Source: Squalus acanthias
Taxonomy: Eukaryota
Length of the DNA: 64,000 bases
Direction of reading: 5' to 3'
Assembly (NCBI GenBank): GCA_030390025.1
Contig: JASTWF010000033.1
Location: forward strand, 5,334,001 to 5,398,000
The position numbers and the translations under genes are program-made. The notes beneath the pieces are model-generated. The model was not told the DNA's origin. It saw only the letters and a list, made by a program, of their open reading frames with translations, and did no database searches. Numbering within the stretch: position 1 is the stretch's first letter; each line of letters starts with the position of its first letter. Shown here piece by piece: positions 6,793 through 44,812 of this stretch.

Positions 6793-6794
6793 TT

Positions 6795-8300: not shown

Positions 8301-8384
8301 GAACCGGCGTTCTCGGGTCCGATTTTCGCTTCGGTGTTTGTTTAAATTTACGAGAAGTCCGCGGTTCAAATCCCAAAAGAGCGA
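8301..8384 (+). pseudogene. tRNA-Pro(CGG)-like with ~13-nt insertion 3' of the anticodon
   Basis: gattttcgcttcgg-[tgtttgtttaaatt]-tacgagaagtccgcggttcaaatccc aligns to tRNA-Pro; acceptor stem decayed. Confidence 0.7.
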
Positions 8385-9083: not shown

Positions 9084-9156
9084 GTTCCCGTAGTGTAGTG
9101 GTTATCACGTTCGCTTTACAAGCGAAGAGTCCCCGTTTCGAGGCCGGGCGGAAACA
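9084..9156 (+). pseudogene. tRNA-Val(TAC), probably pseudogene
   Basis: 73 nt, TT-TAC-AA loop; G53>T in the B box, acceptor mismatch. Confidence 0.85.
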
Positions 9157-9802: not shown

Positions 9803-9875
9803 GTTTCCGTTGTGTACTGGTTATCGCATTCCGCTAACACACGAAAACTCAACGGTGCGAATGTGAGTAGACACA
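9803..9875 (+). pseudogene. degenerate tRNA-Val(AAC), paralog of 6720-6792
   Basis: gtttccgttgtgtactggttatcgcattccgctaacacacg... Confidence 0.7.
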
Positions 9876-10644
9876 ATTTAATGCCTTTTATCCATTCAAG
9901 TTTACTAAATATGAAAACTGGAATAATTTGAATGTTTCGTTCAGTATAAATAAAATACGCATTGACAGGTGAATTAAGCCTTTCAAATGGCAGCGTTACA
10001 GTGAGTGAAGTAATTCTCAATGTTATTTCCCATATAGGACACAGTTTTGTTTGCGGTACTGTAAGTAGGATTTGGGGAAATTTGGGGCTGATTTAGGGAA
10101 TTTCCCCTCGCGTGTCGCTAACATAAGAGGTTGGCCTTATTTTATTTCAAAATTGAGGCTGGGAACTTTCTCATTGAGAAGGTGGAAGCAGAACAACACA
10201 GATTAACAGGAAAACACAAGGTTAATGACAGGATTCAAATTGCACTTTCAATCGGACCGTCTGGGTGTCCTTTCAATAAGTAATAAAAAAGCGCGTCTCT
10301 AAAAATTTCCCCAGCATGTTATGATTCAGGACACTGAGACGAGGCTAGAAATTGAGAAATAAAAGCACAGGGATATAGAGAAGAGGAAGAGAGAAGGGTA
10401 AAAATGTTGTTTCCACGCAGAACTAATGCAGCGACTCCTCTGCTGCGCCTGGTGTAGCCTCCTGCAGCCTGGGTGCATTAACGTCCTAACAGCTCACAAA
10501 CTGCAGGAGTGGGATTTGGCGGCGCTTCAGAAGACAGTTCGAAAAGGCAAAGACACTGTCTCGGTCTCAAGTGCTCTGATCATCAAGAATAGCCACACAA
10601 ACAAAATGGTTTTCCAATTATTATCTAGTCACTCGGCTAGGTTT

Positions 10645-10728
10645 GAACCGGCGTTCTCGGGTCCGATTTTCGCTTCGGTGTTTGTTTAAATTTCCGAGAA
10701 CTCCGCGGTTCAAATCCCAAAAGAGCGT
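10645..10728 (+). pseudogene. tRNA-Pro(CGG)-like with ~13-nt insertion, paralog of 8301-8384
   Basis: cgcttcggtgtttgtttaaatttccgagaactccgcggttcaaatccc. Confidence 0.7.
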
Positions 10729-11008
10729 TCGTTTGCCGGCCACTATTCAACTTGCAGTTGAATCTTTGCAATCACCATTAAATAACCGATTACCATAATT
10801 TACAGAATGAAAGAAAGGCGAAATACACTTCAATAACGCATTTGGCCCTTTGTAAGTAATGAACTGTTAACCATATCTCATGTTACACATTGTACTTTAG
10901 GAATCGCGTTTAAAATGTTCATTGCTTATGAAAGCAGAAACCTGGAGCAACTTTTGTTAAAATTAACAGAACTGGTCACTGCATAGAATGAAATCCTGGC
11001 AAATGTAA

Positions 11009-11082
11009 TGTTTCCGCCCGGGCTCGAACCGGAGACTTTTTCGCGTGTGATACGAACGTGATAAGCGCTACACTACGGAAAC
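11009..11082 (-). tRNA. tRNA-Val(CAC), slightly damaged
   Basis: GTTTCCGTAGTGTAGCGCTTATCACGTTCGTATCACACGCGAAAAAGTCTCCGGTTCGAGCCCGGGCGGAAACA; D-loop GG>GC and 1-nt insertion. Confidence 0.85.
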
Positions 11083-11314
11083 CGCTCCGTCGTTGCTCAC
11101 AGGGGATAGACTCAGTAGTGAACAAAATATACCACAGCGTTCATTTTCAGATTCAAGGCAGTCAAATTTTAAATCAAGTGAAAGAATGTTTCTGTGAAAC
11201 GATTTGGAATTGTGTGTTACTGGTATTTTTGCCTTTAATTAACGATTGTGGCGTCTGACTCCCGTTCATGTCACCTCTTCCTCTGTTGAATAAGAAAGGA
11301 GGGGTTGCCATTGA

Positions 11315-11471
11315 GTTAGATATAACACTCACAACTAGGGGGATCAAGGGGTATGGCGAGAAAGCAGGAATGGGGTACTGAGGTAGCATGTTCAGCCATG
11401 AACGCATTGAATGGCGGTGCAGGCTCGAAGGACCGAATGGTCTACTCCTGTACCTATGTTTCTATGTTTCT
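11315..11471 (+). mobile_element. 5'-truncated CR1 3' end with ATTGA TSD
   Basis: CR1 tail ending ctatgtttctatgtttct; ATTGA at 11310-11314 and 11472-11476; empty site in the paralog at ~8964. Confidence 0.85.
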
Positions 11472-11590
11472 ATTGACCAGACTGCACAGCGCCTGATATA
11501 TGCGAGCTCAACCTTTATATTGTGTGATGCTGTTTAAGGTAAACCAATCAGCACTGGTCAGTTCCGCTCTGGTGAAGCAATGAACACTGC

Positions 11591-11663
11591 GGCTCCGTTG
11601 TGTAGTGGTTATCACGTTCGCTTTATACGCGAAAAGTCCCCGGTTCGAGGCCGGGCGGGAGCA
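11591..11663 (+). pseudogene. tRNA-Val scaffold, anticodon TAT, acceptor stem damaged
   Basis: ttcgc-tt-tat-ac-gcgaa; paralog of the TAC copy at 9084. Confidence 0.8.
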
Positions 11664-12299
11664 TTATGTTTAAACTTGCTGTGGATGAGCAACCAGCGGT
11701 GTTTATTCCAAATGACAAGAGATAATTACTGGAAATACTGTCAATCTGAAATAGAAACGGAAAATATCGGAAATTCTCAAGAGGTCAGGCAGTGTATGTG
11801 GATAAAGAATCAGGGTAGAACGTTTCAAGTCGATTACCCTTCGTAAGACCTGTGAAACGTCAGAGATGAATGGCTAGTTTATTGTCCTGTCAATAGGTCT
11901 ACAGCGTCTTCTCCATTGTTCTTTATTTCACTTCATAAACCAGATACATTTGAGTGAGAGAAAACTGATCCGCAGTGAGGCCCATTTCATCTTTTGTTCC
12001 CTTTTACAACCTAGAATCTCTGAAGCCCTAAAGTTCAGAAATGTAATTCAGTAATCTGCAGGGTGGCCGTCAGTCCGAAGCCTTTTCTGTCTGGATCCGG
12101 GAGTGCAGCTGGTGTAAGGCTCAAGGTTGCAGCTATTCTCGATAGATTTTTGTTTGGTAAGGTTATTAAGGGTTACGGAAACAAAGCGGGTAGATGATGC
12201 GAAGATACAGATCAACCCTGATCTAATTGAATGGCGCAACAGGCTCAAGGGGCTGAATAACCTCGTCAGTTCCCCTCTATTGAAAAGATGAACACAGCG

Positions 12300-12356
12300 G
12301 TTCCCGTAGTATATTGGTTATCACGTTCGTTTTGCACGCGAAAGGTACCCGTATCC
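12300..12356 (+). pseudogene. 3'-truncated tRNA-Val scaffold (anticodon TGC)
   Basis: gttcccgtagtatattggttatcacgttcgttttgcacgcgaaaggtacccg, then joins unrelated spacer sequence. Confidence 0.75.
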
Positions 12357-13382
12357 AGCCCTGACGGTGCAGAAAGTTCCTCTGAAAGTTACACATTCCG
12401 GCTGCTTTTAAGTTGAACAGTGACAGATTATTAAAGGATCCTGCAGCGCTCCCTCGCTTCAGGGCAGCAGATCTAATCCGCGTTTCTGCAAACTAATAGC
12501 AATTCCTGCTGTGTGCAACGAAATGCTGTGGGTTGATTAATGAAAATAGAAACAATTATGAATTGTCTCACAGAATTCATTTATGCCTTCAGTTAACCAA
12601 AATCTATCAATCGCAGCTTAAAATGAGCAATTGATGCAGCATCTTTGAAAGAGGTATCCAATTAGTCCCACTCCGCTGCTCTACCCACATAGCCCTGCTG
12701 ACACTCCTGTCAGTGGAAACTGATTCCCCCATAATTTTGAACACCTCTATTAAATCCCCCCTGAACTGTGATTAATGGAGTGCAATGCGGGCAAGTGTCA
12801 GATCATCCACCTGGGGGCCTAACAAAGATCGCTCAGTGTATGGTCTGAAAACATCATGTCAGAGAATATTCTCATTTCTTTCATTCTGCAAAAGAAAGTT
12901 AGCGGTTAATTAATGGTGATGAAAGCAGTTCTTATTTCATCACATTAGATTCATGTTATTAATTTAATAATTTAATAATCCCTTATCCTGTGACTCTATC
13001 CCTTAGTTCTAGACTCTACAGCCAGGGGAAACAGCCTCTCAGCAACTACCCTTTCAAGCCCTTCAAGAAAATTGTACCTTTCAATGAGAACAGCTCTCGT
13101 TCTTCTGGAATTCAGACAATATCGGCCCAATCTACTGAATTTCTCCTCAAAGGACAACCCTACCATGACAGGAATGAATCAGGTTTGATTCCCACTCAGG
13201 GACTTCAGTTTTGACAAAGACAATTGAAGTCTGTGAGACACTTAATAATTGTTTTAATCAACACACCAAAATGTTTGCACACTGAAGGAAATGCTAACAA
13301 ATTTGCCGGGTGACAGTCAAACTTTAATAACTGTTTTTATACAATCATAGATTCAGCGCAGAAGCGGGTAATCGAGCACGGA

Positions 13383-13455
13383 ATTTCCGTAGTGTAGTGG
13401 TTATCACGTTCACCTAACACGCGAAAAGTACCCGTTTCGAAACCGAGCGGGAGCA
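13383..13455 (+). pseudogene. tRNA-Val(AAC), probably pseudogene
   Basis: 73 nt followed by TTTT; G1>A and G53>T changes. Confidence 0.85.
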
Positions 13456-14270
13456 TTTTGAAAACATGTTCAATTAAATAGCAGAAAAATTGAACAATTC
13501 TCATTTGTGGTTCAATGTAGCAAAGTCCTGTTAATTTTGTTGTTTCTCTGTACAGTTCTGTACACACTCAAAACACTTCAGTGTCGCTCGCTCACTGCCG
13601 TTTCCAACCCTGACGGTGCAGAAAGCCTCTGTCAACGCTGCACATTCCGGCTGCTTTCAGTTGAATAGTGACAGATTATTAAAGGATCCTGCAGCGCTTC
13701 CTCCGTTTAGAACAGCAGATCTAATCCGCGTTTCTGCAAACTACTAGCAATTCCTGCAGTGTGCAACAAAATGTTGTGGGTTGACTAATGAAAATAGAAA
13801 CAATTATGATGTTTCTCACAGAATTCAATTATCCCTTAATACCTTTGTTTAACTAAAATCTATCAATCGCAGCTTAAAATGAGCAATTGATGCAGCATCT
13901 TTGAAAGAGGTATACAATTAGTCCCACTCCGCTGCTCTTCCCCCATAGCCCTGCTGACACTCCTGTCAGTGGAAACTGATTCCCCCATAATTTTGAACAT
14001 CTCTATTAAATCTCCCCTGAACTGTGATTAATGGAGTTCAATGCGGGCAAGTGTCAGAACATCCACCTGGGGCCTAACATAGATCGCTCAGTGTATGGTC
14101 TGAAAACATCTAGTCAGAGAATATTCTCATTTCTTTCATTCTGCAAAAGAAAGTTAGCGGTTAATTAATGGTGATGAAAGCAGTTCTTATTCTATCACAT
14201 TAGATGCATGTTATTCATTTAATGAAATTACTTCGCATTCATGAATTAAAAACGGTGATATCAAAATTAA

Positions 14271-14294
14271 TTCCCTAACCGGGAATCGAACCCG
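14271..14294 (-). pseudogene. tRNA-Glu 3' fragment (also at ~16846-16875 and ~60735-60760; plus strand ~33088-33114)
   Basis: ttccctaaccgggaatcgaaccc is the reverse complement of the tRNA-Glu T arm/acceptor end. Confidence 0.6.
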
Positions 14295-15044
14295 CTTCAT
14301 GGCGCTGCTTGGAATAGGTTATTGAATCATTCAAAGGTGCCCTCGAAAAATTTCACACTGCTAAATTAAAATCACTGCGACAATTTGTTCTGGTCTTGAA
14401 GAAGGGAATTGAAAATTATAATAAAAACGCCAGGCATCGACCGCGATGAGGCCGAGTTCGAACTTTCAAAGAAGCTGGAAGCGCTGAGCTGAAGCTGACG
14501 CCGAGTGACGGACGAGAAGCCGCTCAATATAAAGGATGAGCTCACAATCATCAGGCGCAGTGCAGTCTGGTCACCATCAAGCCACGCCTTTCTTATTCAG
14601 AAACATGAACGGGAGCCAGACGCCACAAACTTTAATTAAAGGCACAAATACGAGTAACACTTACGTCCAAATTTTCACTGTTAAAATTATATCACATTAT
14701 TCTAAATCTGACTGCGTTGAATCTGAAAGGCAACACCATGGTGATTTGAAGTTCACTGCTGGATTATATTTTCTGTGCACGGTAGAAATAACCGGTCCTG
14801 TTCAATGTGACAAAAGTTGCCCCAAATTCCTGGTGTCATCAGCAATGTACATTTTAAACCAGACTCCTACAGTACATTGTGTAAAATGAGATATGAGTAA
14901 CAGTTAACATGCAAAGCACAAAAAAAATGATTGAAGTATCGACTCTCGCTCAGTTATCATTTCTTTCATTGTGCAAAAGAAGATTATCGGTTAATTAATG
15001 AGGCTTTTCAGCGAATGCAACATAAAAGTTGAACAAAAAGCACT

Positions 15045-15118
15045 CGCCCAACGTAGGGCTCGAACCCACGACGACTGAGATTAAGAGTCTCATGCTTTAC
15101 CGACTGAGCTGGCCGGAC
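15045..15118 (-). tRNA. tRNA-Lys(CTT), slightly diverged
   Basis: GTCCGGCCAGCTCAGTCGGTAAAGCATGAGACTCTTAATCTCAGTCGTCGTGGGTTCGAGCCCTACGTTGGGCG, followed by a T5 terminator. Confidence 0.9.
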
Positions 15119-15648
15119 CTGACAATTTTGCAAGCCCTGGTCACTTATTGCAGTCAGGCGCCTGATGGCCCCGCCCCAGGGGTTTAACTTGTTCTGCAAA
15201 TCACGAACCAGGTTCTCTTCAATTCCAAGGTGTGTAAGGAAATCAAGCATCAACAGCCCTTTCATTAACCACAGGGATTTATGCAATGTTCTGATCGCAA
15301 AGCGCTTTTAGTCATTCTCAATATCTCTCGACTATTTCCGTCTGTTTCCCGATTCTGTCTGTCTCTCTGGCTCTGTTTATTCTGTGTGTGGCCACCTGCA
15401 GGTTGATTTTTAACGAATACCTGTGCTTGTGTCTTGTCACATTAAATAAATGAGGAATTGTGGCGCTTCTCTCCCTGATACTGGGGAATCAGTGAGACAG
15501 ACTTTGGAGCAAGGGTCTGGTATTGTGAAACAGCAAAGAAAATATTAATTCCGGAAATGCTGACATGAATTGCCGGTATACAGTCAAACTTCAATAAATG
15601 TTTTTCAGAATCATAGATTTACCGCAGAAGCCCAAAATTCAGCACAAA

Positions 15649-15707
15649 ATGTCCGTAGTGGTTATCACGTACGCGAAAAGTCTGCGGTACGAAACCGGGC
15701 GGAAACA
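15649..15707 (+). pseudogene. tRNA-Val remnant with anticodon arm deleted
   Basis: gtagtggttatcacgt|acgcgaaaagtctgcggtacgaaaccgggcggaaaca. Confidence 0.75.
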
Positions 15708-16982
15708 TTTCTTAAATCATGTTCAATTAAATAGTGGAAACATGGAAAAATTCGCATTTGTCATTCAAAGTCCTGTTCCATTTGTGTTTCTCTGTACAGC
15801 TCTGTGCACACTCAAAACACTGGAGTGTCGCTCGCTCACTCCCGTTTCAAGCCATGACGGTGACGAAAGCCCCTCTCAAAGCTGCACATTCCGGCTGCTT
15901 TCAGTTGAATTGTGAAAGATTATTCAAGGATCCTGCAGCTTTGCCTCGGTTCACAACAGCAGATCGAAGCTGCGTTTCAGTAAACTACGAACCATGTTCT
16001 CCAGAATTACAAGTTGTATAAGGAACTCAGACATCAAAATCTCTTCCATTAACCACAGGGGTTCAGGCAATTTTCTATGATTCTATAAAAAGTTATTGAA
16101 GTTTGACTGTCATCCGGTAAACATGTTAGCAATTCCTGCAGTGTGCAACAAAATGTTGTGGGTTGATTAATGATAATAGAAACAATTATGAAGTCTCTCA
16201 CAGACTTCAATGATCCATTAATAACGTTAGTTAAATAAAATCTATCAATCGCAGATTAAAATGAGCAATTGATGTAGCATATTTGAAAGAGTTATCCAAT
16301 TAGTCCCAGTCCGGTGCTCTTTCCCATAGCCCTGCTGATACTCCTGCCAGTAGAAACTGTTGCACCCATAATTTTGATCACCTCTATTAAATCCCCCCTG
16401 AACAATGATTAATTGAGTTCAATGCGGGCAAGTGTCAGATCATTCACTTGGGACCTATCAAAGATCGGTCAGTGTATGGGCTGAAAACATCATGTCAGAG
16501 AATACTTTTTTTTCTGTGAAATAGCCGGTCCCGTTAAATTTAACAAAAGTTGCCCCAGATCCCTGCTCTCACAAGCAATGAACATGTTAAACCATTCTCC
16601 TAAAATACATTGTGTAAAATGAGATATGGGTTAACAGTTCAGCACATGCAAAGAGCAAAATAAAATACTGAAGTTTTGACTGTCCCTCAGTAACAAGATT
16701 ATCATTTCTTTCATTCTGCAAAAGAAAGTTATCGGTTAATTAATGCTGATTAAAGCAGTTCTTATTTTATCACATTGGATGCGTGTTATAAATGTAATAA
16801 AATGACTTCGGATTCATGAATTAGAAACGCTGATGTCAAAATTACTTCCCTAACTGGGAATCGAACTCGGGTCGCTCGGGAGGCTTGGAATAGGTTATTC
16901 AATCATTTAAAGATGCCCTCGAAAAATTTCACACTGCTAATTTAAAATCACTGCGACAATGTGCTTCTGTGAAAATGATAAT

Positions 16983-17744
16983 GGCCCAGAAATTAAAAAT
17001 CGATGGTTCCCGCAGGGGTAAGGATTCCCCGCGATATCGCACTCTGCGCCTACCTTTTTGTTTCGGGCCCACACGAACTTCAGTTTCAGGGCCTCTCCCT
17101 GTTGCCAGCGTGCAGTGCTTGCGTGTCCCAGAGGCGCAATTAGTCCGTGCGAGCTCTGGGATCACGTGATTCAGTTAGAGCCAATGGCAGCACAACATCT
17201 TTCATTCATAGTTTTGACAGCAAGGGCTGTCAAATCTATGAATACTACAAGCCCCCAAAAGAACAGCTAAACCTCAATTATTTTTTTTTAAAAGCCATCA
17301 CATTAATTAAATAACTATAGTTCAATGAATTAACCACTTTAAACAAAAAATACAATTTTTGAAAAAATTTTAAATCTTTTTAATAGTTATAAAAATAAGC
17401 TTACCTTTCTTTAAAGTCTCTAAAAAAGATAAATCTGTTGAAAAAAATTTAAAATAACACTTAATTAACTACTTACCTTGTTAAAAGGGGGTCCTACGCT
17501 GCATTCTTTATGTGTAAAATCTTCACCACTTACCTGCGCGTTCAAACCTGAAAAAAAACTAAGTGCACTGCGTGCGCACAACCTGTACTGCACACGCGGT
17601 TCACTTAGGAACCGCCCCCTTTGCAATACACGAAGTGCCGGGTTCCCGCGCATGCGCAGTGCACGCAGGAAACCGGGAATTCGGGGCCTAATACGCAAGA
17701 GTACACAGTGCGTACTCTCGCGTATTCGCTCTAATTTTCGGGAC
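16983..17744 (-). mobile_element. MITE copy 4 with exact AAT TSD
   Basis: AAT-GGCCCAGAAATT...AATTTTCGGGAC-AAT; empty paralogous site gaaaattat-AAT-aaaaacgccagg at ~14411-14434. Confidence 0.9.
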
Positions 17745-18374
17745 AATAAAAACGCCAGGTAGCGCCTGCGGTGAGCCAGTGTTGGAACTTACAAACAAAT
17801 TGGCGCTGCGAAGTAACCATTGAGCTAAAGCTGACGCCGATTAAAAGCTGAGAAACCGCTCATTATAAAGGATGAGCTCACAAACATCAGGCGCAGTGCA
17901 GTCTGATCAACGTTAAGCCCCTCCTTTCTTATTCAGAGACATGAACGGGAGTCAGCCGCCACAAACTTTAATTTAAGGCACAAATACATGTAACACTTCC
18001 AAATTTTCACTGTTAAAATTATATCACTTTATTCCAAATCTGACTGCGTTGAATCTGAAAGTCAGCACCATGGGATTTTATGTTCACTGCTGATTCTATT
18101 TTCTGTGCAAGGTAGAAATAACCGGGCCTGTTCAATGTGACAAAAGTTGCCCCAGATTCCTGGTGTCATCAGCAATGAACATTTTAAACCAGACTCCTAC
18201 AGTACATTGTGTAAAATGAGATATGGTTAACAGTTAACATGCAAAGCACAACTAAAATAATTGAAGTATCGACTCTCGCTCATTTATCATTTCTTTCATG
18301 GTGCAAAATAAGATTATCGGTTAATTAATGATGCTTTTCCGTGAAAGCAACATAAAAGTTGAACAAAAAGCACT

Positions 18375-18447
18375 CACCCAACGTGGGGCTCGAGCCCACG
18401 ACCCTGCGATTAAGAGTCTCATGCTCTACCGACTGAGCGAGCCGGGC
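18375..18447 (-). pseudogene. tRNA-Lys(CTT), probably pseudogene
   Basis: GCCCGGCTCGCTCAGTCGGTAGAGCATGAGACTCTTAATCGCAGGGTCGTGGGCTCGAGCCCCACGTTGGGTG; T54>C and an anticodon-stem mismatch. Confidence 0.88.
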
Positions 18448-18894
18448 CACACACGCACGTACAGTTTTATCGCTGATTACAGCCAGGCGCCTGGTGGCTC
18501 AGCCCCAGGGGTTTAACTTGTTCTGCAAAACACGAACCAGGCTCTCCAGAAACCCAAGGTGTGTAAGGATATCGAGCAACAAAAGCCCTTTCATTAACCA
18601 CAGGGATTCAGGCAATTTTCTGATCGCAAAGCGCTTTCAGTCCTTGTCAATATCTCTTGTCCATTTCCCGATCTTTCCCAATTCTGTCTGTCCCTCTGGC
18701 TCTGTTTATTCTGTGTTTGGCCAACTGCATGTTGATTTTGAACGAATAGCTGTGATTGTGTCTGCTTGTTACTTTAAACAAATGAAGGCATGAGGCGCTT
18801 CTTTGCATGAAACTGAGAAATCAGAAGAAGGCAGGAGAAATGAAACAGTGTTTGTGGAACGCACATATATACAAACATCCCCCTTTACACTGCG

Positions 18895-18968
18895 GACCTC
18901 GTGGCGCAACGGTAGCGCGTCTGACTCCAGGTCTATGAAGGTTGCGTGTTCAAATCACGTCGGCGTCA
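18895..18968 (+). pseudogene. tRNA-Trp(CCA) with disrupted anticodon stem
   Basis: GACCTCGTGGCGCAACGGTAGCGCGTCTGACTCCAG...GTTGCGTGTTCAAATCACGTCGGCGTCA; 2 extra nt after the loop. Confidence 0.88.
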
Positions 18969-19261
18969 CTGTTCTTCCGAATAATCCCGGAGTTAATATT
19001 TTCTTTGCTGTTTCACAATACCCAGACTCATGCTCCAAAATCTGTCTCAGTGCTTCCCCAGTGTCAGGGAGAGAAGCGCCACAATTCCTCATGTATTTAA
19101 TGTGGCAAGACAAATGCACAGGAATTCGTACAAAATCAACCTGCAGGTGGCCACACACAGAATAAACAGGGCCAGAGAGACATACAGAATCGGGAAACAC
19201 AGGGATATTGACAAGGACTGAAAGCGCTTTGCGATCAGAAAATTGCCTGAATCCGGTCCGA

Positions 19262-20890
19262 ACTTAAAACAGTCACTATCACTAAAGAACAAGCACTCGG
19301 TAAAATAATGGGTTTAAAGGTGGACAAGTCCCAGGGAACTGATGGTCTGCATCCTAGGGTCTTAAAAGTAGTGGCAGCAGAGATAGTGGATGCACTGGTT
19401 GCAATCTACCAAAATTCCTTGGATTCTTGAGAGGTCGCAGTGGATTGGAAAACCGCAAATGTAACGCCCCTATTTAAGAAGGGAGGGATACAGATAGCAG
19501 GAAAATATAGATCAATCAGTCTAAAATCTGTAATTGGGAAAATGCTGGAGTCCATTATTAAGGAAGCAGTAGCACGACATTTAGAAAACAATAATAGAGT
19601 CAGCATGGTTTTATGAATGTTTGACAAATTTGCTGGAGTTCTTTGAGGATGTAACGAGCAGGGTGGATAAAGGGGAACCAGTGGATGTGGTGCATTTGGA
19701 TTTCTAGAAGGCATTCGATAAGGTGCCACGTAAAAGGTTACTGCACAAGATAAGAGCTCACGGGGTTACGGCTAATATATTAGCATGGATAGAGGATTGG
19801 CTAACTAACAGAAAACAGAGAGTCGGCATAAATGGTTCATTTTCCGGGTGGCAAACAGTAACTAGTGGGGTGCCGCAGGGATCAGTGCTGATGCCTCAAC
19901 TGTTTACAATCTATATTAATGAATGGATAAAGGGACCGTGTGTAATGTAGACTAATTTGCTGATGATACAAAGATAGGTGGGAAAGCAAGTGGTGAAGAG
20001 GACACAAAGAATCTGCAAAGGGATATAGACAGACTAAGTGAGTGGGCAAACATTTGGCAGATGGAGTATAAGGTGGGTAAGTTTGAGGTTATCCACTTTG
20101 ATAAGAAACATTTAAAAACAATTATTATTCAAATGGAGAGAGATTACAAAATGCTGCAGTACAGAGGGACGTGGAGGACCTTGTGCATGAAACACAAAAA
20201 GTTAGCATGCAGGGACAGCAAGTAATCAGGAACGCAAATGGAATGTTGGCCTTTATTGAAAGGGGATTGGAGTATAAAAGCAGGGAAGCTCTGCTACAAA
20301 TGTAAAGGATATTGGTGAGAACACACCTGGAATACTGTGTACAGTTTTGGTCTCCATATTTAAGGAGGGGTATTCCTGCATTGGAGGCAGTTCAGAGAAG
20401 GTTCACGAGTTTGATTCCTGAGATGAAGGGGTTGACTTATGAAGAAAGTTTGAGCAAGTTGTGCCTATACTCATTGGAGTTTTGAAGAATGAGAGGTGAT
20501 CATATTGAAACATATAAGATACTGAGGGGGCTCGACAAGGTAGATGCAGAGAAGATTTATCCCCTCACGTGGGAATCTAGAACTAGGGGTCATAGTTTCA
20601 GAATAAGGGGTCGCCCATTTAAAATTGAGATGAGGAGGAGTTTCTTCTCTGAGGGTCGTAAATCAGTGGAATTCTCTGCCCAGAGAGCTGTGGAGGCTGG
20701 GTCATTGAATATATTTAAGGTGGAGATAGACACATTTTTGAACAATAAGGGAGTGATGGGTTATGGGGAGCGGGCAGGGAAATGGAGCTGAGCTCAAGAT
20801 CAGATCAGCCATGATCTCATTAAATGGCGGAGCAGGCTCGAGGGGCCAAATGGCCTACTCCTGCTCCTATTTCTTATGTTCTTATGTTCT
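19262..20890 (+). mobile_element. CR1 LINE 3' half (decayed RT plus 3' tail)
   Basis: [32 protein letters not shown] peptides; tail cctactcctgctcctatttcttatgttcttatgttc. Confidence 0.92.
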
Positions 20891-24236: not shown

Positions 24237-24609
24237 CTGTAAGGAAGGGGGGGAAAGGGAAAATGCACATCAGGATTGGAGCTGAAATATCAGTGTCGTG
24301 GATCAATGGATGTCATTTGCTGAGAGCTCACAACATCCCGTGATGGAATCCATCATGACAGAACTTCATGTTAGAGCTAAGACTTCAAGTCAAGTGTCAG
24401 TAATGATTTGTGAATTCAAGGACTGATCAAATTGGATAAATAAACATGAAAATAACACGGTTATAATTATTCAGAAATGTCCAACAATAGAATGTGGTTT
24501 GCCCTAATGAACAAAGAGTAAACACACTGACTGGTGCCAACAAAACCTGATGGTGCTGACAGAAGGTCCCACGGTCAAATCTGGGCCTAGTCAGTTACAA
24601 TTGGAATCA

Positions 24610-24880
24610 ATGACCCTGTGATATGGATGGGTTGATCCCCCTGGTTCCAGCTACTAAGCTGTGACTCTGGGATGTGCTGAGGGTGTAACCCCCTTGGTCC
24701 TGCTCCTGATCAGTGACTCTGGGATGTGCTGAGGGTGTAAACCCCTTGGTCCTGCTCCTGATCAGTGACTCTGAGATGTGCTGAGGGTGAAACTCCCATT
24801 GGTCCTGCTCCTGATCACTGACTCTGGGAAATGCTGAGTGTGTAATCCCCTGACTCCTGATGCTGATCAGAGACCCTGTT
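24610..24880 (+). repeat. minisatellite, ~52-bp unit, ~5 copies (GPCR intron)
   Basis: gtgactctgggatgtgctgagggtgtaacccccttggtcctgctcctgatca repeated from 24661, 24713, ... Confidence 0.9.
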
Positions 24881-25546
24881 TATTGTGATGTCACATATGA
24901 ACATAGGAGCAGGAGTGTGCCATTCAGCCCATCGAGCCTGTTCCGCCATTTAATGAGATCTGGGCTATCTGTATCCAAACTCCATTCATCTGCCTCGTGT
25001 CTATATAACTTAATACCCAACAAATGCTCAGTTTAGCTGAATCACTTCCCAAAACAGATGTTAGACTATCTAATCTTTAATTTCCTGGTATCTCTCTCTC
25101 ACCTTTCCTAAATAACAATTGCATTTGTAATTTTGCAACCTAATGGGACAATTCATGACTCGAGAGAGCTTCGGAAGATTACGGCTAAACCATCTGCAAT
25201 TTCCTCACTACTTTCTTTATAACCCTGGGGTGGAAACCATCTGGTTCTCGGGATTATCAGTCTTCAGTGCCATTATATTTGCTGATACTGTTTTCTTGCT
25301 TACGTTACCCCGACTACTTTTTCTCTTATATAATTGTAAAAACCTTTTGTGTTGCTCTTGAAATCGATCGCAATTTTATTTTCTTATTCCCTCTTTGCAG
25401 CTCTTAATATCTGTGTTGTCTTCCTTTGCTGTTCTTTCTATCTCTGGCAGCTCCCTCGATCTACACTATTATTTTCACTTTTGTATGTTATTTCCATTAG
25501 CTTTATGTTATCTCTCACCTCTTCTGTTGACCATTGTTCACATGAT

Positions 25547-25998
25547 TCCTGCTCCTGGTCAGTGACCCTGGGATATGGTGGGGTATACGCCTTGGTCCTG
25601 CTCCTGATCAGTGACCCTGTGATAGGGTGGGGTATACACCTTGGTCCTGCTCCTGATCAGTGACCCTGGGATATGGTGGGGTATACGCCTTGGTCCTGCT
25701 CCAAATCAGTGACTCTGGGATATGGTCGGGTATACGCCTTGGTCCTGCTCCTAATCAGTGACCCTGGGATATGGTGGGGTATACGCCTTGGTCCTGCTCC
25801 TGATCAGTGACCCTGGGATATGGTGGGGTATACGCCTTGGTCCTGCTCCTGATCAGTGACCCTGTGATATGGTGGGGTATACGCCTTGGTCCTGCTCCTG
25901 ATCAGTGATCCTGTGATATGGTGGGGTATACGCCTTGGTCCTGCTCCTGATCAGTGACCCTGTGATATGGCGGGGTATACGCCTTGGTCCTGCTCCTG
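25547..25998 (+). repeat. minisatellite, 49-bp unit, ~9 copies (GPCR intron)
   Basis: gtgaccctgggatatggtggggtatacgccttggtcctgctcctgatca in tandem. Confidence 0.95.
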
Positions 25999-27077
25999 TA
26001 CATTGTGTAATGACTTCTGCTGGAAAGTGTCTGTTTGAATGTTTGACGAGTAAAAGGATTGTTCAGCCACGTTATGTGCCGTGGCAGAATGACATTTTAC
26101 ACCTGCTGCCTCGCCTCAAACTTAATGAACGGTAATTTCAGAGTGGTCCCTGGTGCCGAAATCTAGCAAGGGCCTGTATAAACCCGGAGTTTAAATTAAT
26201 CCGACTAGCGGGAAAGGGGTGTGTTCAAGTCGGACACCTGTTTTACTCACCGTCCAATGGTCCGCAACATTGAAGTCAATGCATAGCGAAATCGGGCGGG
26301 CTGTAAAACGGGTGTCCGGGCCGAACTCGCCTGGTTCCCGCCGGGCGGGTTAGCTTCAAATGATAGCTGAAATTAGATACAGAGGCAGAGAACAAGAGTG
26401 AATTAAAATCATCAATGAAATATTTCAAAATTAACATCAGCCGTGAGATGGGTCTTAACTCGGGACAGCGTAAATCACTCTTAGAGGATATACTTCTAAC
26501 TAAAGAGGAGAACAGTACAAGGAGCAGAGGAAGACACCGGGTCATGAGGAGAGAGTGGGTCTGGGGAGTCGTTTTTGAAATACTGCAGCAAACAGCTGAG
26601 ACTGAGAGAAGGCTGAACCGTCTCCTTCTGTGCAGGAAACATCTGGGGTGTGAAACGGCAGTGGAAAAATGGACCAAAGGAGAATCATCTGTAATCATGT
26701 GTGGAACATGAGATAGCTGTCTTGTGAAAACTCATCAAGGACACAATACCTTCTGGAGAGGAAGAGAGAGAAACTTAAAAAATCAGTATTGGCAATAATA
26801 ACGGAATATTATCTTTTGCTACCGGATAAAAATGATCAGTAGCGGATTGGATGGGTATTGTACACACTGCCCGATTTCAGTCATTGATTACTGGCGCAAC
26901 TTTTAACTTTCAGCAAAGAAGTAAACGAGACAATATCGAATGGCCAATGTTTCTAAAACCCCACTCCGTTTCGCTATCCTGTAAAATCAATGTAAAGGAA
27001 ATTCGTGAGAGGTGTATAATGGGAGCCCAGTGTTACATAACCGATCTTACACTATTACCAATACAAAATGTACTACC

Positions 27078-27125
27078 TGTCTGTCGATCTGTCAGTATGT
27101 CTATCCACTGTCTGTCTATCTATCG

Positions 27126-27209
<84 letters not shown>

Positions 27210-27378
27210 CTCTCTCTATCTATCTATCTGTCTATCTATCTCTCTCTCTATCTATCTATCTGTCTATCTGTCTATCTATCTGTCTGTCTATCTATGTATA
27301 TATCTATCTATCTGTCTATCTATCTGTCTATCTATCTGTCTGTCTATCTATCTATCTAACTATCTATCTATCTAACTG

Positions 27379-27416
<38 letters not shown>

Positions 27417-27425
27417 CACTGTCTG

Positions 27426-27500
<75 letters not shown>

Positions 27501-27508
27501 GCCTGTAA

Positions 27509-27562
<54 letters not shown>

Positions 27563-27608
27563 TAATCTATCTATCTATCTATCTGTCTATCTATCTATCA
27601 ATCTATCT
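27078..27608 (+). repeat. (TATC)n/(TGTC)n compound microsatellite, ~530 bp
   Basis: direct inspection. Confidence 0.98.
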
Positions 27609-28513
27609 GATGATTTTGTAATGGGAGAATGTCCATTCGTATTTCAAAGCTATTCGGATGGGCAGCCACTATAAAGGGGCTGATGATGTAACTAACGATT
27701 CGATCTGCCACCTTGTGTTTGAGAAAGGATCTGAATGGAAGTGAAACAATGCTAATCTGGCGCTGTCCACATGACTGCGAGAACTGAATAGGTTTCAAAT
27801 TAATAGAGGGAATAAAAAACGATAAAATGATAAAGGAATCTACAACGCACCTTACTCCATTTACAATCAATTGGAATTAAAATCAGTTGGAATGATTTAT
27901 CGCCAATTGCAACTCTGTATCATTAATTTTACCCAACAGATGTAAAAAATATCCTTGAAGCCATGAACATATTCCTGATTGGATTTGATTCGATCTTTAC
28001 TGTTTAACAATCAATCACCGCCTGTCCGGAGCACACACAGATAATCGGGGCGGGCAACAGGCCCCTCACCAATAATAGAACCCGCCAGATTCACCTTCCT
28101 TTAAAATCAATGGAACGACTGTGGCTGGTTTTGTAAATCCTTCTCGCCCACTTCTTGTTCCACCGGCCTCCTCATTCGCTGTTTAACGCCCAGAGGGTAA
28201 AGTGTAAAATCTACTCCCAGACTCAGACCGGACTGCAGATTGTAAGATATTCATTAAATAAATCACCCAATGACACTGTCGGGGAACAAGTTACTTTCAG
28301 ACACAAAGCAAGAGGAATAAACTGAATACAGTGATTTTTTGGATATGCAGACTTACACAATGAACACAGTGTTTACAGTTAAATATCGTTTCCAGTATGA
28401 AATATTAATATGGTCACTTACAAGGAACACCGACAGCAACTGGGATTTGACAGTTACAGGCAGGAATACAATTAAAATGGTTACAGGATTAATACCTGGA
28501 GATAGATACTTAC

Positions 28514-40152: not shown

Positions 40153-41015
40153 TAACGATTAATGACGTGATATGGCGTCACAGTGGTTCTGTTACTCGAC
40201 CAGTAATCCAGAGACCTGGACTAATGATCCGGGGCCGTGAGTTTAAATCCCACTGCTCCAGCTGGGTGAAATACGAAACCAAGGTTGCGAACAGACTGGT
40301 TCAGCCTCAGACAGTGGCCAGGGATAGGGATGGAGTCGGTGGCCAGGGAACGGAGTTTGTGGCGGGGACCAGCACTCAATGGCGATACATCGCTGACCCC
40401 TAAAGGCTACTTGCAAACCTTTCCGCCCAGCAAAATTCCAAATAGTGAGCAAGGTTATCTCCATTATTCCACTTGGGCTCGGCCTTTCCTCATCCATAGC
40501 TACAGATTCAACACTTTCCCCTCTGCCAAGTGTCGATGCTGAGCTAATCACACAGCTGCCGTCAAGGCTATCGGTTCTCAAGTCGCTGCTTCTGTTTCAC
40601 ACTGCACAGCACAGGTTGTATTATTGTCTTATCAGATAGAAAGTGTATAAGCATTGCAAGCAACTGATGCACAAAGCTTGAAAAGACAATGTAAAATTTG
40701 CTCGAGGGCGAGAACACAATACATGCAATGCCTGCATTTCAGGAAGCACTGCTTTGAAGTTCTTCATGTCTACCAGCTGAATGCAGATGGAAATGAACAT
40801 TTCATCAAACAGCATTCTGTTGAGCAGTCAAACGCTGCATTGAACAACAAACTTTCTCTTCCGCTGATTTGGAACAGGAAAATTATGATTTGACATCTAG
40901 ACAAGGCGCTCAATCCTCATTGATTCATGCAGCAAACTGCCCAGAGCAGCGATTGGCTCAGGTGCCTTTTACTTCTTTGTTCTAAACTTTCCAACAGCTG
41001 GGACAAGAAGAAATC

Positions 41016-41087
41016 AGGTTCCACCGAGATTTAAACTCAGATCACTGGATTCAAAGTTCAGAGTGATCACCATTACACCATGGAACA
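41016..41087 (-). pseudogene. tRNA-Gln(TTG), probably pseudogene
   Basis: 72-nt match GTTCCATGGTGTAATGGTGATCACTCTGAACTTTGAATCCAG...TCTCGGTGGAACCT; B box C56>T. Confidence 0.88.
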
Positions 41088-41162
41088 CACACCCGCTGCT
41101 TGAGCCAACTCTGTTTTCTCAATCTCTGCTACCATTCACAGCCAGTGGAATCGTTTCTGCCA

Positions 41163-41348
41163 GTGCTGGGAATACTCAACAGGTCAGGCAGCATCTGTGG
41201 AGAGTCCAACAGAGTTGTGACAAAGGGTCATTCACCTGAAACGTTAACTCGGTTTCTCTCTCCACAGATGCTGCCTGACCTGCTGAGATTTTCCAGTATT
41301 TTCTGGAGGGTTTTTAGATTTCTAGCATCCACAGTATTTTGCATTTGG
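41163..41348. mobile_element. inverted-repeat remnant of a second Penelope-like terminus family
   Basis: gctgggaatactcaacaggtcaggcagcatctgtggagag / ctctccacagatgctgcctgacctgctgagattttccagt arms with central degenerate hammerhead-like motif ...cctgaaacgttaact. Confidence 0.65.
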
Positions 41349-41609
41349 AATCTTTTCTGACTCCAGTTCAGTGGCACTTGTTGTCTGTTGCAAAGGGATG
41401 AATCGTTTCAACTGAAAAGTGAACTATCTTAGTCAAGAGCAAAATCTGTCATTGTGCCAGGAGCTGGACTGAGAGCTCCAGTAACATGGATTGCAGTAGC
41501 AGCTCAGGCGACTGGGGGTTTGTGGAATGTTGTAGTCTAGAATCGATCTGTCCGCAGATTTTAACAAGTGTCTGCATTTACATGTAAAACACAGAGATTG
41601 ACACAAATC

Positions 41610-41680
41610 AGGTCCTACTGAGATTTAAATCAGGTCGCTGGATTCAAAGTCCACAGTGTTCACCATTACACCATGGAACC
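41610..41680 (-). pseudogene. tRNA-Gln(TTG) pseudogene
   Basis: GGTTCCATGGTGTAATGGTGAACACTGTGGACTTTGAATCCAGCGACC..; T arm damaged. Confidence 0.85.
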
Positions 41681-41736
41681 GACACTGACATCTTATTGAG
41701 AGCAAATATTTGAAAGAAACTTGCCTCTTTTGTCAT

Positions 41737-42430
41737 AAACAACAACTTGCATCTATATAGCGCCTTTACCGGCGTAGACCGTCCCAAGGCGCTTCACAGG
41801 AGGGTTCTGAACCAAATTGTGACACCTAGCCGCGAAAGGAATTATGGCCGGAGAGTCCAGAACCAGAGGTCATAATCTACGGATAACGGGTAAACCATTT
41901 AGGACAGAAATGAGGAAGAATTTCTTCACCCAGACAGTGGTGAACCTGTGGAATTCTCTACCACAGAAGGTAGTTGAGGCGAAGTCATTAAATATATTCA
42001 CGGTTGAGTTAGATATATTTCTTAAAGCTAAAGATATCAAGGGATATGGGGAGAAGGCAGGTACAGGGTACTGAGTTTAGATGATCAGCCATGATCTCAT
42101 TAAATGGCGGAGCAGGCTCGAGGGGCCGAATGGCCTACTCCTGCTCCTATCTTCTATGTTTCTATTAGCACAGATGATCGAAAGTTGGTCACAGAGGTAG
42201 GTTTTAAGGAGCGCGTTAAAAGAGGAAAGAGAGATAGAGAGGCGGAGAGGTTCAGGGAGGGAATTCCAGAGCTGAGGTCCTCGGCAGCTGAAGGCACGGC
42301 CACCCATGGTGGAGCGATTAAAGTCAGTGCTGTTAAGAGCCCTGAATTGGAGGAGCGCAGATATCGCGGGGAGTTGTAGGGCTGGAGGAGATTACAGAGA
42401 TAGAAAGGGGCGAGGCCATGGAGGGATTTG
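41737..42430 (-). mobile_element. L2-type LINE 3' end, interrupted by a plus-strand CR1 3' end (~41844-42163)
   Basis: GGRAFSCRGPQLWNSLP..LR.S.SLSSF..LLKTYL peptide plus gctatataga..caagttgttg tail; the inserted piece encodes ESRTRGHNLRI..FRTEMRKNFFTQ. Confidence 0.8.
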
Positions 42431-42759
42431 CACTAGTGCGAGAACACAGTACATGCAACGTCTGCATTTCAAGAAGCAATGCTTTGAAACTCTACAAGTC
42501 TGACTTCTGAATGCAGATTACAAAGAGAAGTTCAGCAAACACCATGATGTTGTGCAGACAGACGCTGCATTGGACAACAAACAACTTTCACTTCCGCTGA
42601 TTTGGAACAGGGAAAGACAGGCTGAGCTTGTGATTTGACATCTAGACAAGGAGATCAATCCTCATTGATGAAGGCAGCAAACGGCCCAGAGCAGCGATTG
42701 GTTTCCAGGAGACTTTTCCTTGTTTTTATCAAATTTTCCAACAGCCGGGACAAGAATTC

Positions 42760-42831
42760 AGGTTCCACCGAGATTTAAACTGAGATCACTGGATTCAAAG
42801 TCCAGAGTGCTCACCATTACACCATTCCACG
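42760..42831 (-). pseudogene. tRNA-Gln(TTG), 5' acceptor strand lost
   Basis: ATGGTGTAATGGTGAGCACTCTGGACTTTGAATCCAGTGATC...CTCGGTGGAACCT. Confidence 0.85.
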
Positions 42832-43137
42832 TGCGCTCCTCTGAGCCAACTCTGTTTTCTCCAGCTCTCCTCCCATTCACAGTCACTGGAATCTTTCCTA
42901 ACTCCTGTTCAGTGAGACTTGTGGTCTGACACAAAGAGACGCATCGTTTCAACAATCTCCGCCAAGAACAGCATTCTGTCATTGTGGCAGGAGCTGGACT
43001 CAGAGCTCCAGTAACATGGATTGCAGCAGCAGCTCAGGATTGGAGGCTTGTGGAATGTTATTTACTAGAATCGATCTGTCTGCAGATGTTAAAAAGTGTC
43101 CCCATTTCCATGGGAATCATAGAGATTGACACAAAAC

Positions 43138-43209
43138 AAGTTCCAGCGAGATTTGAACTCAGATCGCTAGATTCAGAGTCCAGAGCGCTCACCGTTACAC
43201 CACAAACAG
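43138..43209 (-). pseudogene. tRNA-Gln(CTG) pseudogene
   Basis: GTGGTGTAACGGTGAGCGCTCTGGACTCTGAATCTAGCGATCTGAGTTCAAATCTCGCTGGAAC. Confidence 0.83.
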
Positions 43210-43486
43210 GAAAGAACGTGTCAAAGGCGAGGTTGAATTGTTGATTCTTTCTCTCTCTCTCCACTGACTCTCTTTCACTACCATTTCCCCAATCGAATAT
43301 ATGGGAACATATTTCATTCCAAAGTGAGTAACCTCCTGAAAAGCTCCGTGATTTCCCTCGACGAATCACATCACTCTCGTTGGGATCAATTTCGACGAGA
43401 AACAGCTGTGACGTCCTGAGTGGGTGAAAGGCGCTGCAGAAAGACAAGTCTTTCTTGCAAAAGTTTCAACTGCAATTTCAATACGC

Positions 43487-43575
43487 GGGCTCGTCCGGGA
43501 TTCGAATCCGGGAACTTCTGGCAAAATGTAACCAACAACCCCGAAGCGAGAATCACAACCCGAGACCAACTTATT
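43487..43575 (-). pseudogene. tRNA-Pro(CGG) with 16-nt intron-like insertion between positions 37 and 38; first 5 nt lost
   Basis: GTTGGTCTCGGGTTGTGATTCTCGCTTCGGG-[gttgttggttacattt]-TGCCAGAAGTTCCCGGATTCGAATCCCGGACGAGCCC. Confidence 0.85.
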
Positions 43576-43971
43576 AAAAAGATAGCCATACAGACCGATT
43601 GAAACTACAATTTGAATCCTATCGCTGACCCTGTGTTTTCCTATTAATCTGTGTTGTTCTGCTCCCACATTCTCAATGAGAAGGTTCCGAGCCTCAATTT
43701 TTAAATAAAATAAGTCCACATCTTCAGTAACGACACGCGAGGATGAGATTCCCTAAATCAGCGCCAACTTTCCCCAAAAAACCTTATAGTACGCAACCAA
43801 AACTGTGTCCTATATGGGAAATATCATTGAGAATTACTTCGCTCACTGTAACTATGCCATTTGAGTGGCATAATTCGCCTTTCAATGCGTATTTTATTCA
43901 TACTTAACCAAACATGTAATTGATTCCAGTTTTCATATTTACTGAACTTGAATGGAGAAAAGCCATCAGGT

Positions 43972-44044
43972 TGCCTCTACCCACTTTCGAACCGTTGAGT
44001 TGTCGAGTGTTAGCGGACTGCGATACTCACTACACACCGGAAAC
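43972..44044 (-). pseudogene. degenerate tRNA-Val(AAC), paralog of the 6720 and 9803 copies
   Basis: lies in an inverted diverged copy (~43440-44650) of the 6-8.4 kb unit. Confidence 0.65.
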
Positions 44045-44533
44045 CCTCAGCACTCGGGTGCATTGCAATGCAGCGACTCAATAGGAAGAGGAGGAGGCCA
44101 TTCAGCCCCTCGAGCCTGTTCCGCCATTCAATTAGATCGCGGGCTGATCTGCATCTGAACTCCATCTACCTGCTTAGGTTCCGTAACCCATAATACCCTT
44201 AACCAACAAAAATCTATCGACAGTAGCGGCAATATTCAGCCTCAAACCAGCTCCGCTGCCGGATCCAGACAGAAAAAGGCTTCTTACTGACGGCCACCGT
44301 GCAGATTTATGAATTACATTTCTGACCTTTACCGGGGAGGGATTCGTAGATTCCCAAATCGATCAAAAGATGAAATGGGCGTCACTGTTGATCAGTATTC
44401 TCTCACTCAAAGTTATCTATATAGTGAAGTGAAATAAAGAGCAGTTAATGAATAAGGGAGCAGCCACTGTAGCCCTTTTGACAGGAGAATAAACTCGCCT
44501 CGAGATGTTCATCCACAACAAGTTAAAACAAAA

Positions 44534-44606
44534 TGAATCCACCTGGGATCGAACCGGAGACCTTTCGCGTGTAAAGCGAACGTGATAACCACTACACCAC
44601 GGAAAC
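44534..44606 (-). pseudogene. tRNA-Val(TAC), acceptor stem damaged
   Basis: GTTTCCGTGGTGTAGTGGTTATCACGTTCGCTTTACACGCGAAAGGTCTCCGGTTCGATCCCAGGTGGATTCA. Confidence 0.87.
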
Positions 44607-44812
44607 TGCTGGTACTGCAACTGCAACAGAGCGGAACTGACCAGTGTACTCCCTCCGTGCTGATCGGGAATATGTTGGTTCAACTTAAACAACATCACTT
44701 GTGTCCCACACTAAAAGCTCACAATCCTTCTCCTCCACTACATTTTACAGCTCACACACGGGAGAGGTGGGGAAACGCTTCCCGCGGGTAGGGGCTGCTG
44801 TCAAGGATGGGA

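What the first reader, a model, noticed from the sequence alone, without database searches (positions are those of the whole stretch)
43487..43575. tRNA-Pro(CGG) family with an insertion at the canonical tRNA intron site
Seen: relative to vertebrate tRNA-Pro, this copy has 16 extra nt (gttgttggttacattt, 43524-43539) that place exactly one base 3' of the CGG anticodon, between positions 37 and 38. Paralogs at 8301-8384 and 10645-10728 carry a related 13-nt T-rich insertion at the same place. Established: eukaryotic tRNA introns removed by TSEN sit at 37/38, and vertebrate intron-containing tRNAs are mainly Tyr-GTA, Ile-TAT, Leu-CAA and Arg-TCT. Inference: these three copies are damaged, but they may descend from a functional intron-containing Pro-CGG family in cartilaginous fish, an unusual isotype for vertebrates. 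All three occupy the same position in a duplicated unit, so they represent one ancestral event.
Basis: partly seen in the sequence, partly recalled or inferred. Interest (0 to 1): 0.72.

Follow-up and report, generated by a model that had tools for sequence, protein, structure and literature searches.

The report
Shark proline tRNA genes carry introns
This is a broken copy of a proline tRNA gene family in which about 98% of the gene cores found in this (likely shark) genome carry a short insert at the classic tRNA intron site, likely cut out by the tRNA-splicing enzyme, whereas human proline tRNA genes are reported as almost all intron-free.

Summary
The minus-strand copy at 43487-43575 has a 16-nt insert at position 37/38, and two more decayed copies lie at 8301 and 10645. 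Genome-wide, 514 tRNA-Pro cores (CGG, AGG and TGG) carry an insert there, against 10 without. Arg-TCG shows the same pattern, 377 against 1. Trp-CCA/Arg-ACG controls do not. Of 62 genes held in full, 55 have at most 2 exon mismatches to the intronless gene. Their 16-22-nt introns fall into four families, as unlike as shuffled sequence, yet all 55 keep the anticodon-intron pair that the splicing endonuclease needs. Splicing is inferred; no RNA was examined. [quoted passage not shown] This scan found a Pro-TGG case earlier in another shark-like genome (e1-9871480). Not found in print: the Pro and Arg-TCG identity, the selection signature, and the split into 10 intronless genes versus hundreds of arrayed intron-bearing ones.

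The parts
43540..43569 (-). 5' exon remnant of tRNA-Pro(CGG) pseudogene (about nt 7-37; anticodon CGG at 43541-43543, G37 at 43540); A-box changes at positions 14 and 18
43570..43575 (-). foreign bases in place of tRNA nt 1-6, brought in by an upstream deletion of about 370 bp
   Evidence: 42 exact copies of this junction genome-wide
43524..43539 (-). 16-nt intron at 37/38, derived from the C21-type intron; position -3 is T, so the anticodon-intron pair is lost
43487..43523 (-). 3' exon with a change in the anticodon stem, one extra base in the variable loop and a B-box change at G53
8301..8384 (+). more decayed paralog with the related intron (13-nt excess within 8335-8349)
10645..10728 (+). 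more decayed paralog with the related intron (13-nt excess within 10679-10693)
43569..44499 (-). upstream flank shared with the units that hold the two paralogs (83% identical to 9354-10281; 43569-43961 is 86% identical to 7542-7937)

Best explanation
The window copy is a dead, 5'-truncated copy of an intact proline tRNA gene family whose members carry a 16-22-nt insert at position 37/38 that is likely removed by the TSEN endonuclease and RtcB ligase, giving a mature tRNA identical to that of the genome's ten intronless genes. Shown: insert position, exon identity, the conserved anticodon-intron pair, the copy numbers, the tandem arrays (1.6-kb unit with Pro, Arg-TCG and Ser-GCT genes), and the fact that one intron family occurs with all three Pro anticodons. 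Inferred: RNA polymerase III transcription, splicing, selection on the exons, and anticodon switching inside the arrayed unit followed by array homogenisation. The window copies arose by segmental duplication of a C21-type Pro-CGG gene inside a decaying tRNA cluster. Their flanks came along, so retroposition is unlikely.
For: (1) Counts: 152 CGG plus 362 non-CGG cores have an insert; 10 have none even at 2 mismatches. (2) Exons: of 62 distinct places held in full, 55 have at most 2 exon mismatches to the intronless gene and 37 have none. (3) Anticodon-intron pair: position -3 is A (pairs with U32) in 55 of 55 of these, against 4 of 7 damaged ones. It is A in all four intron families (shuffle P 0.008; with a purine at -4, P 0.00035). 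Families are 39-56% identical, against 44+-8% for shuffles. (4) Arg-TCG has C32 and G at -3 in 46 of 46, so the pair changes on both sides between isotypes. The rule is stated in PMC8479045 (passages) and PMC10275265 (section 11). (5) Across nine array units, pairwise differences are 1.4% in Pro exons, 8.0% in spacer and 17% in Pro introns. (6) Controls: the Trp-CCA/Arg-ACG-type core gives 294 intronless matches and 3 with an insert, all carrying the Arg-TCG intron. The known intron family Ile-TAT has an intron in 100 of 100 listed matches, of 103. (7) A T4 terminator lies 2-7 nt after the non-array genes and about 55 nt after the array genes.
Against: No RNA evidence was obtained: transcription and splicing are untested. 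Intronless genes exist for all three Pro anticodons and for Arg-TCG, so the arrays are not strictly needed for decoding. Tandem arrays stay uniform by concerted evolution without selection, and 49 of the 55 intact genes sampled belong to the one 17/18-nt array family. The units were picked by an exact match over 23 of the 71 exon positions scored; without those positions the exon figure is about 2.1%. Arg exons were less conserved (4.3%, against 8.0% spacer and 6.9% intron). The four intron families may share one origin, so the P values overstate independence. The counts are of core patterns, not whole genes, and unplaced contigs may duplicate arrays. Folding energies were uninformative (z -0.7 to -2.6 for intact genes, -1.5 for the dead copy).
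Confidence: 0.85

Rival explanations
1. The intron-bearing genes are mostly silent or unspliced repeats kept uniform by array homogenisation; the ten intronless genes supply all tRNA-Pro.
For: Intronless genes cover CGG, AGG and TGG. The Ser gene in the same array units is visibly decaying, with 2-10 mismatches in most copies examined, so array membership does not prove function. No RNA support was obtained.
Against: Four diverged intron families on separate contigs keep near-perfect exons and the -3 A. Six intact genes lie outside the main array family. Pro exons differ far less than spacer in the same units.
Confidence: 0.12
2. A one-off insertion in an already dead copy, later duplicated.
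For: The three window copies and at least 42 look-alikes elsewhere are all damaged.
Against: Two perfect genes with the same intron type and flanks exist on C21. Hundreds of other intact genes have different introns at the same site.
Confidence: 0.02
3. Inserts at 37/38 are a general by-product of this genome's tRNA arrays or of assembly error, not an isotype-specific intron.
For: Most intron-bearing copies lie in tandem arrays.
Against: Arrayed Arg-ACG and clustered Trp-CCA genes have none. In 512 kb of tRNA clusters, 4 of 139 assigned genes of other isotypes were called with an insert: three are mutated or internally duplicated Leu-CAG genes and one is a mutated Pro gene.
Confidence: 0.01

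Closest known systems
Human/mouse intron-containing tRNA families Tyr-GTA, Ile-TAT, Leu-CAA, Arg-TCT (PMC10275265 section 11; PMC8479045 passages: 28 of 429 high-confidence genes)
   Same: Single short intron at 37/38, pyrimidine-32 paired with purine at intron -3, variable intron sequence among members, a minority of intronless members. Ile-TAT has its intron here too.
   Different: The isotypes are Pro (all three anticodons) and Arg-TCG; there are hundreds of copies in tandem arrays; about 98% of Pro cores carry an intron. An older human table lists 1 of 10 Pro-AGG genes with an intron and no Pro-CGG, Pro-TGG or Arg-TCG (PMC3159098 Table 4).
[quoted passage not shown]
   Same: [quoted passage not shown]
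   Different: The passages read name no isotype and test no anticodon-intron pair or selection. Fig. 3A and the supplements were not seen and may list isotypes.
Human tRNA-Arg-UCU: four intron-containing genes plus one intronless brain-specific gene (PMC10485636 passage)
   Same: One anticodon is served by intron-bearing and intronless genes, which could allow differential supply.
   Different: Here the split is 10 intronless against about 500 intron-bearing Pro genes, with identical mature sequences; tissue specificity is unknown.
Earlier scan finding e1-9871480 (intron-containing tRNA-Pro(TGG), another shark-like genome)
   Same: Broken copy of a Pro family with a TSEN-type intron.
   Different: Another genome; an unchecked AI note, of which only a few lines were visible.
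Budding-yeast tRNA-Pro(UGG) introns; a possible intron-containing salmon tRNA-Pro(CGG) gene (both recalled, from no call)
   Same: Proline tRNA introns exist outside mammals.
   Different: The salmon recollection was not confirmed (searches found nothing). If right, Pro introns would be shared with bony fish and older than sharks.

Membership tests
Eukaryotic TSEN-spliced tRNA intron (intact family members) | Single insert one base 3' of the anticodon (37/38) | tested here: met
   removal at 37/38 restores the intronless gene exactly in 37 of 62 places and within 2 mismatches in 55 of 62
Eukaryotic TSEN-spliced tRNA intron (intact family members) | Short length (generally 15-30 nt, PMC10485636) | tested here: met
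   16-22 nt in Pro, 16-18 nt in Arg-TCG
Eukaryotic TSEN-spliced tRNA intron (intact family members) | Anticodon-intron pair between N32 and intron position -3 | tested here: met
   U32:A in 55 of 55 intact Pro genes, C32:G in 46 of 46 Arg-TCG; four-family shuffle P 0.008
Eukaryotic TSEN-spliced tRNA intron (intact family members) | Intron complementarity to the anticodon loop (bulge-helix-loop) | tested here: met
   On average 15.9 of 20 positions pairable over four families, P 0.0045; weakest in the C21 family, to which the window copy belongs (3 of 5)
Eukaryotic TSEN-spliced tRNA intron (intact family members) | Intact mature domain, internal promoter and oligo-T terminator | tested here: met
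   Exons match intronless genes; T4 at 2-7 or about 55 nt; spliced forms mostly score 120-124 in ARAGORN (range 112-124)
Eukaryotic TSEN-spliced tRNA intron (intact family members) | Precursor is transcribed and the intron excised in vivo | not tested
   No reads were laid on these genes; mature products would be indistinguishable from those of the intronless genes
Eukaryotic TSEN-spliced tRNA intron (intact family members) | TSEN catalytic subunits encoded in the genome | tested here: inconclusive
   PF01974 search found no match at E<=0.001 (3 candidates scored; genes match exon by exon); Ile-TAT introns imply the enzyme
Functional tRNA-Pro gene (the window copy itself) | Closed acceptor stem and intact A and B boxes | tested here: not met
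   nt 1-6 replaced; changes at 14, 18 and 53
Functional tRNA-Pro gene (the window copy itself) | Anticodon-intron pair and intact anticodon stem | tested here: not met
   Intron -3 is T; stem change next to the 3' junction
The four mammalian intron-containing isodecoder families | Anticodon is Tyr-GTA, Ile-TAT, Leu-CAA or Arg-TCT | tested here: not met
   Anticodons are CGG, AGG, TGG (Pro) and TCG (Arg)

The most novel reading that the evidence does not exclude
Sharks run two supplies of the same tRNA-Pro and tRNA-Arg(TCG): a handful of old intronless genes in four small loci, and hundreds of arrayed genes that need splicing. TSEN activity, an intron-dependent modification or the released introns would then set proline and CGA decoding capacity in particular tissues or stages such as the oocyte. 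It would be a vertebrate case of tRNA intron gain or lineage-wide loss that can be dated by comparing genomes.
Probability: 0.25. Interest if true: 0.75.

Novelty: new member of a known kind. Interest (0 to 1): 0.5.

Why it matters
The reviews read here list four intron-containing tRNA families for human and mouse. This genome adds four anticodons (Pro-CGG, -AGG, -TGG, Arg-TCG), with about 890 intron-bearing cores against 103 for Ile-TAT. [quoted passage not shown] Intron-bearing and intronless genes give the same mature RNA, and the introns fall into dated families. This offers a natural test of two open questions: how eukaryotic tRNA introns are gained or lost, and what they are for. A practical point: ARAGORN missed or miscalled many of these genes (as Phe-AAA, Lys-CTT, Leu-TAG or unassigned).

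Tried and rejected
Sequencing runs: no RNA holder listed. Nine rows hold the 1.6-kb array unit or part of it (four hold half its words or more). None was laid, so whether relatives carry the intron stays open and these rows are not used as evidence. Folding of six sequences did not separate intact from dead copies. Synteny of the four intronless loci: 80 kb of flank held no further tRNA gene. Of 144 open frames listed, 80 were scanned against Pfam; hits were seven reverse-transcriptase fragments and two sub-threshold matches, so orthology to mammalian loci was not established. That head-to-head and tail-to-tail Pro pairs resemble human loci is recalled only. PF01974 search was inconclusive. 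Apparent introns in Met-CAT, Cys-GCA, Leu-CAG and Thr-AGT calls were rejected as mutated Leu-CAG or Pro genes. ARAGORN with a 3-nt minimum intron made many false intron calls; they were not used. double-counted overlapping loci and was replaced. Literature: ten searches found no paper naming Pro or Arg-TCG introns in sharks or fish. Schmidt and Matera 2020 is not held. The zebrafish tRNA paper PMC11417395 does not mention tRNA introns in its main text and its supplement could not be read. PMC2888827, PMC4536317, PMC8450103 and 10.64898/2025.12.01.691575 (passages) gave nothing on the point. GtRNAdb and RefSeq annotations could not be consulted and may already list these genes.

Full report
Observation. 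The window is G000:C2561:5334001-5398000 of a 3.7-Gb assembly. Other notes on this genome call it a shark (not tested here). On the minus strand, 43487-43575 is a tRNA-Pro(CGG) copy with 16 extra bases at 43524-43539, one base 3' of the anticodon. Against the genome's own intronless Pro-CGG gene (L031) it has 12 substitutions and one inserted base. The first six bases are foreign, positions 14, 18 and 53 of the promoter boxes are changed, and the anticodon stem is broken. The foreign start comes from a deletion of about 370 bp relative to the unit that holds the copy at 10645. The plus-strand copies at 8301 and 10645 have a related 13-nt excess and are more decayed. Neither ARAGORN nor Rfam calls any of the three. 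All three are pseudogenes.

The family. A pattern for the Pro-CGG core with an 8-30-nt gap at 37/38 gave 152 exact matches, with 0 for the reversed control (100 listed). The same core with another first anticodon base gave 362 (100 listed, all AGG or TGG). Without a gap there are 1 CGG and 8 AGG/TGG matches, and only 10 at four loci even with 2 mismatches. So 514 of 524 cores carry an insert. These are counts of core patterns that differ slightly between calls, and unplaced contigs may duplicate arrays. Of 62 distinct places held in full, 37 have exons identical to the intronless gene apart from the first anticodon base, and 55 are within 2 mismatches. This sample is not random: 49 of the 55 belong to the main array family.

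Source of the window copies. Two perfect Pro-CGG genes on C21 (L001, L002) have the same intron type, and they are the only intact ones of that type by pattern. Their flanks align with all three window copies at 73-74%. The truncated junction of the window copy recurs exactly 42 times; a DNA search scored 40 of 349 candidates at 89-100% identity. The dead copies therefore spread with their flanks by segmental duplication.

Organisation. Most intron-bearing genes lie in tandem arrays of a unit of about 1.6 kb that also holds Arg-TCG and Ser-GCT genes. The same unit and intron family occur with CGG, AGG and TGG. The ten intronless genes sit in four small loci on large contigs, with no other tRNA gene in 80 kb of flank.

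Are these true introns? Eukaryotic tRNA introns lie at 37/38 and keep a pair between N32 and the third-last intron base, which TSEN needs to cut the 3' site (PMC8479045, passages; PMC10275265, section 11). Nineteen distinct introns from near-intact genes fall into five single-linkage groups, or four families when the two C10 introns (73% identical) are merged. Families are 39-56% identical, against 44+-8% for shuffles. Position -3 is A, pairing with U32, in 19 of 19 distinct introns and 55 of 55 intact places, but in 4 of 7 damaged places. It is the only one of the last eight positions fixed in all four families (shuffle P 0.008; with a purine at -4, P 0.00035; pairing with the anticodon loop, P 0.0045). 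The families may share an origin, so these values overstate independence. The window copy has T at -3. Across nine array units, pairwise differences are 1.4% in Pro exons, 8.0% in spacer and 17% in Pro introns. Units were chosen by an exact match over 23 exon positions; without those the exon figure is about 2.1%.

A second isotype, and controls. Arg-TCG genes carry a 16-18-nt insert at the same site: 378 cores in all, one of them intronless. Here position 32 is C and -3 is G in 46 of 46 places, 43 of them within 2 exon mismatches. Arg exons were less constrained in the nine units (4.3%). The related Trp-CCA/Arg-ACG core gives 294 intronless matches and 3 with an insert, all bearing the Arg-TCG intron. 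Ile-TAT, a known intron family, has 103 cores and an intron in 100 of 100 listed. A survey of 56 stretches (512 kb; 174 of 191 tRNA loci assigned; stretches partly chosen on Pro hits) found introns in Pro 22 of 22, Arg-TCG 11 of 12 and Ile-TAT 1 of 1. Four of the other 139 were called with an insert, and all four proved to be mutated Leu-CAG or Pro genes. Tyr-GTA, Leu-CAA and Arg-TCT were not counted.

Mechanism. Most likely (0.85) the intact genes are transcribed by Pol III and spliced by TSEN and RtcB into a tRNA identical to that of the intronless genes. Position, exon identity, the anticodon-intron pair and copy numbers are shown; transcription, splicing and selection are inferred. The main rival (0.12) is that the arrays are silent and the ten intronless genes suffice. 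For it: every anticodon has an intronless gene, the Ser gene in the same units is decaying, and no RNA was examined. Against it: four unrelated-looking introns keep perfect exons and the -3 base, and six intact genes lie outside the main array family. Whether the intron was gained in sharks or lost elsewhere could not be tested, because no other vertebrate genome was available and no reads were laid.

What is known. Human and mouse have four intron-containing families (PMC10275265). An older human table adds single Pro-AGG, Trp-CCA, Cys-ACA and Tyr-ATA genes (PMC3159098, Table 4). A 2025 preprint reports that sharks have abundant intron-containing tRNA loci (10.1101/2025.06.08.657570; abstract, outline and passages). 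The passages name no isotype; Fig. 3A and the supplements were not seen and may do so. Ten searches found no paper naming Pro or Arg-TCG introns in fish or sharks, but the key review (Schmidt and Matera 2020) is not held and databases could not be consulted. I recall, without confirmation, a 1990s report of a salmon tRNA-Pro(CGG) gene that may contain an intron. This scan noted a Pro-TGG case in another shark-like genome (e1-9871480); that is a lead, not support. PMC4090602 (sections 3 and 18 part 1) notes that intron gain and loss by isodecoder is common in yeasts and that its mechanism is unknown.

Verdict. The feature is real. The window copy is a pseudogene of a real and very large intron-bearing tRNA-Pro family that covers all three anticodons, with Arg-TCG alongside. 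The mechanism is the known one, the general shark excess is in print, and the scan saw a case before, so novelty is a new member of a known kind. The isotype identity, the selection signature and the 10-versus-500 split make it a useful, testable system. Interest 0.5.

Noticed in passing
L010:1212-1301 (-) and the C26/C247/C394/C603 arrays: tRNA-Arg(TCG) genes in the same 1.6-kb unit carry a 16-18-nt intron at 37/38 with a C32:G pair; 377 cores with insert versus 1 intronless gene on C23.
   Followed up: yes
L003, L012, L041, L096-L099, L108: One array unit and one intron family occur with three Pro anticodons: CGG at C26:40.5-41.9 Mb, TGG at C26:42.3 and 44.4 Mb and C603, AGG on C247 and C394. 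This points to anticodon switching followed by homogenisation.
   Followed up: partly
L097, L108, L098, L092: Ser-GCT-type genes in some array units carry changed anticodons (GTT, ACT, GCG) with 3-9 further mismatches; likely decaying, but a Ser body with an Asn anticodon would mistranslate if expressed.
   Followed up: partly
window 17748-17837 (-): Vault RNA match (Rfam RF00006, 44.6 bits, gathering 34) followed by a T run, inside the decayed tRNA cluster.
   Followed up: no
window 5900-19300 and 40700-44700: Mosaic of duplicated 0.7-2.3-kb units holding decayed tRNA-Val, -Lys, -Gln, -Met and -Trp genes, homologous to C21 clusters that still hold intact genes.
   Followed up: partly
L035/L100 (G000:C10, about 133.487-133.489 Mb): Small cluster of Pro-AGG genes near a contig end with distinct 18-22-nt introns: two intact, two decayed, one of those with the anticodon changed to AGT.
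   Followed up: partly
L078 (G000:C6:150375009): One intronless Pro-TGG gene has a compensatory change on both sides of the anticodon stem; a similar human variant is recalled, not checked.
   Followed up: no
L135:1551-1662: Leu-CAG gene with a 29-nt internal tandem duplication at the anticodon loop that mimics an intron.
   Followed up: no
window 24605-24880, 25543-25998, 27073-27609: Tandem repeats (about 49-nt units at 24.6 and 25.5-26.0 kb) and a simple-repeat tract at 27.1-27.6 kb.
   Followed up: no
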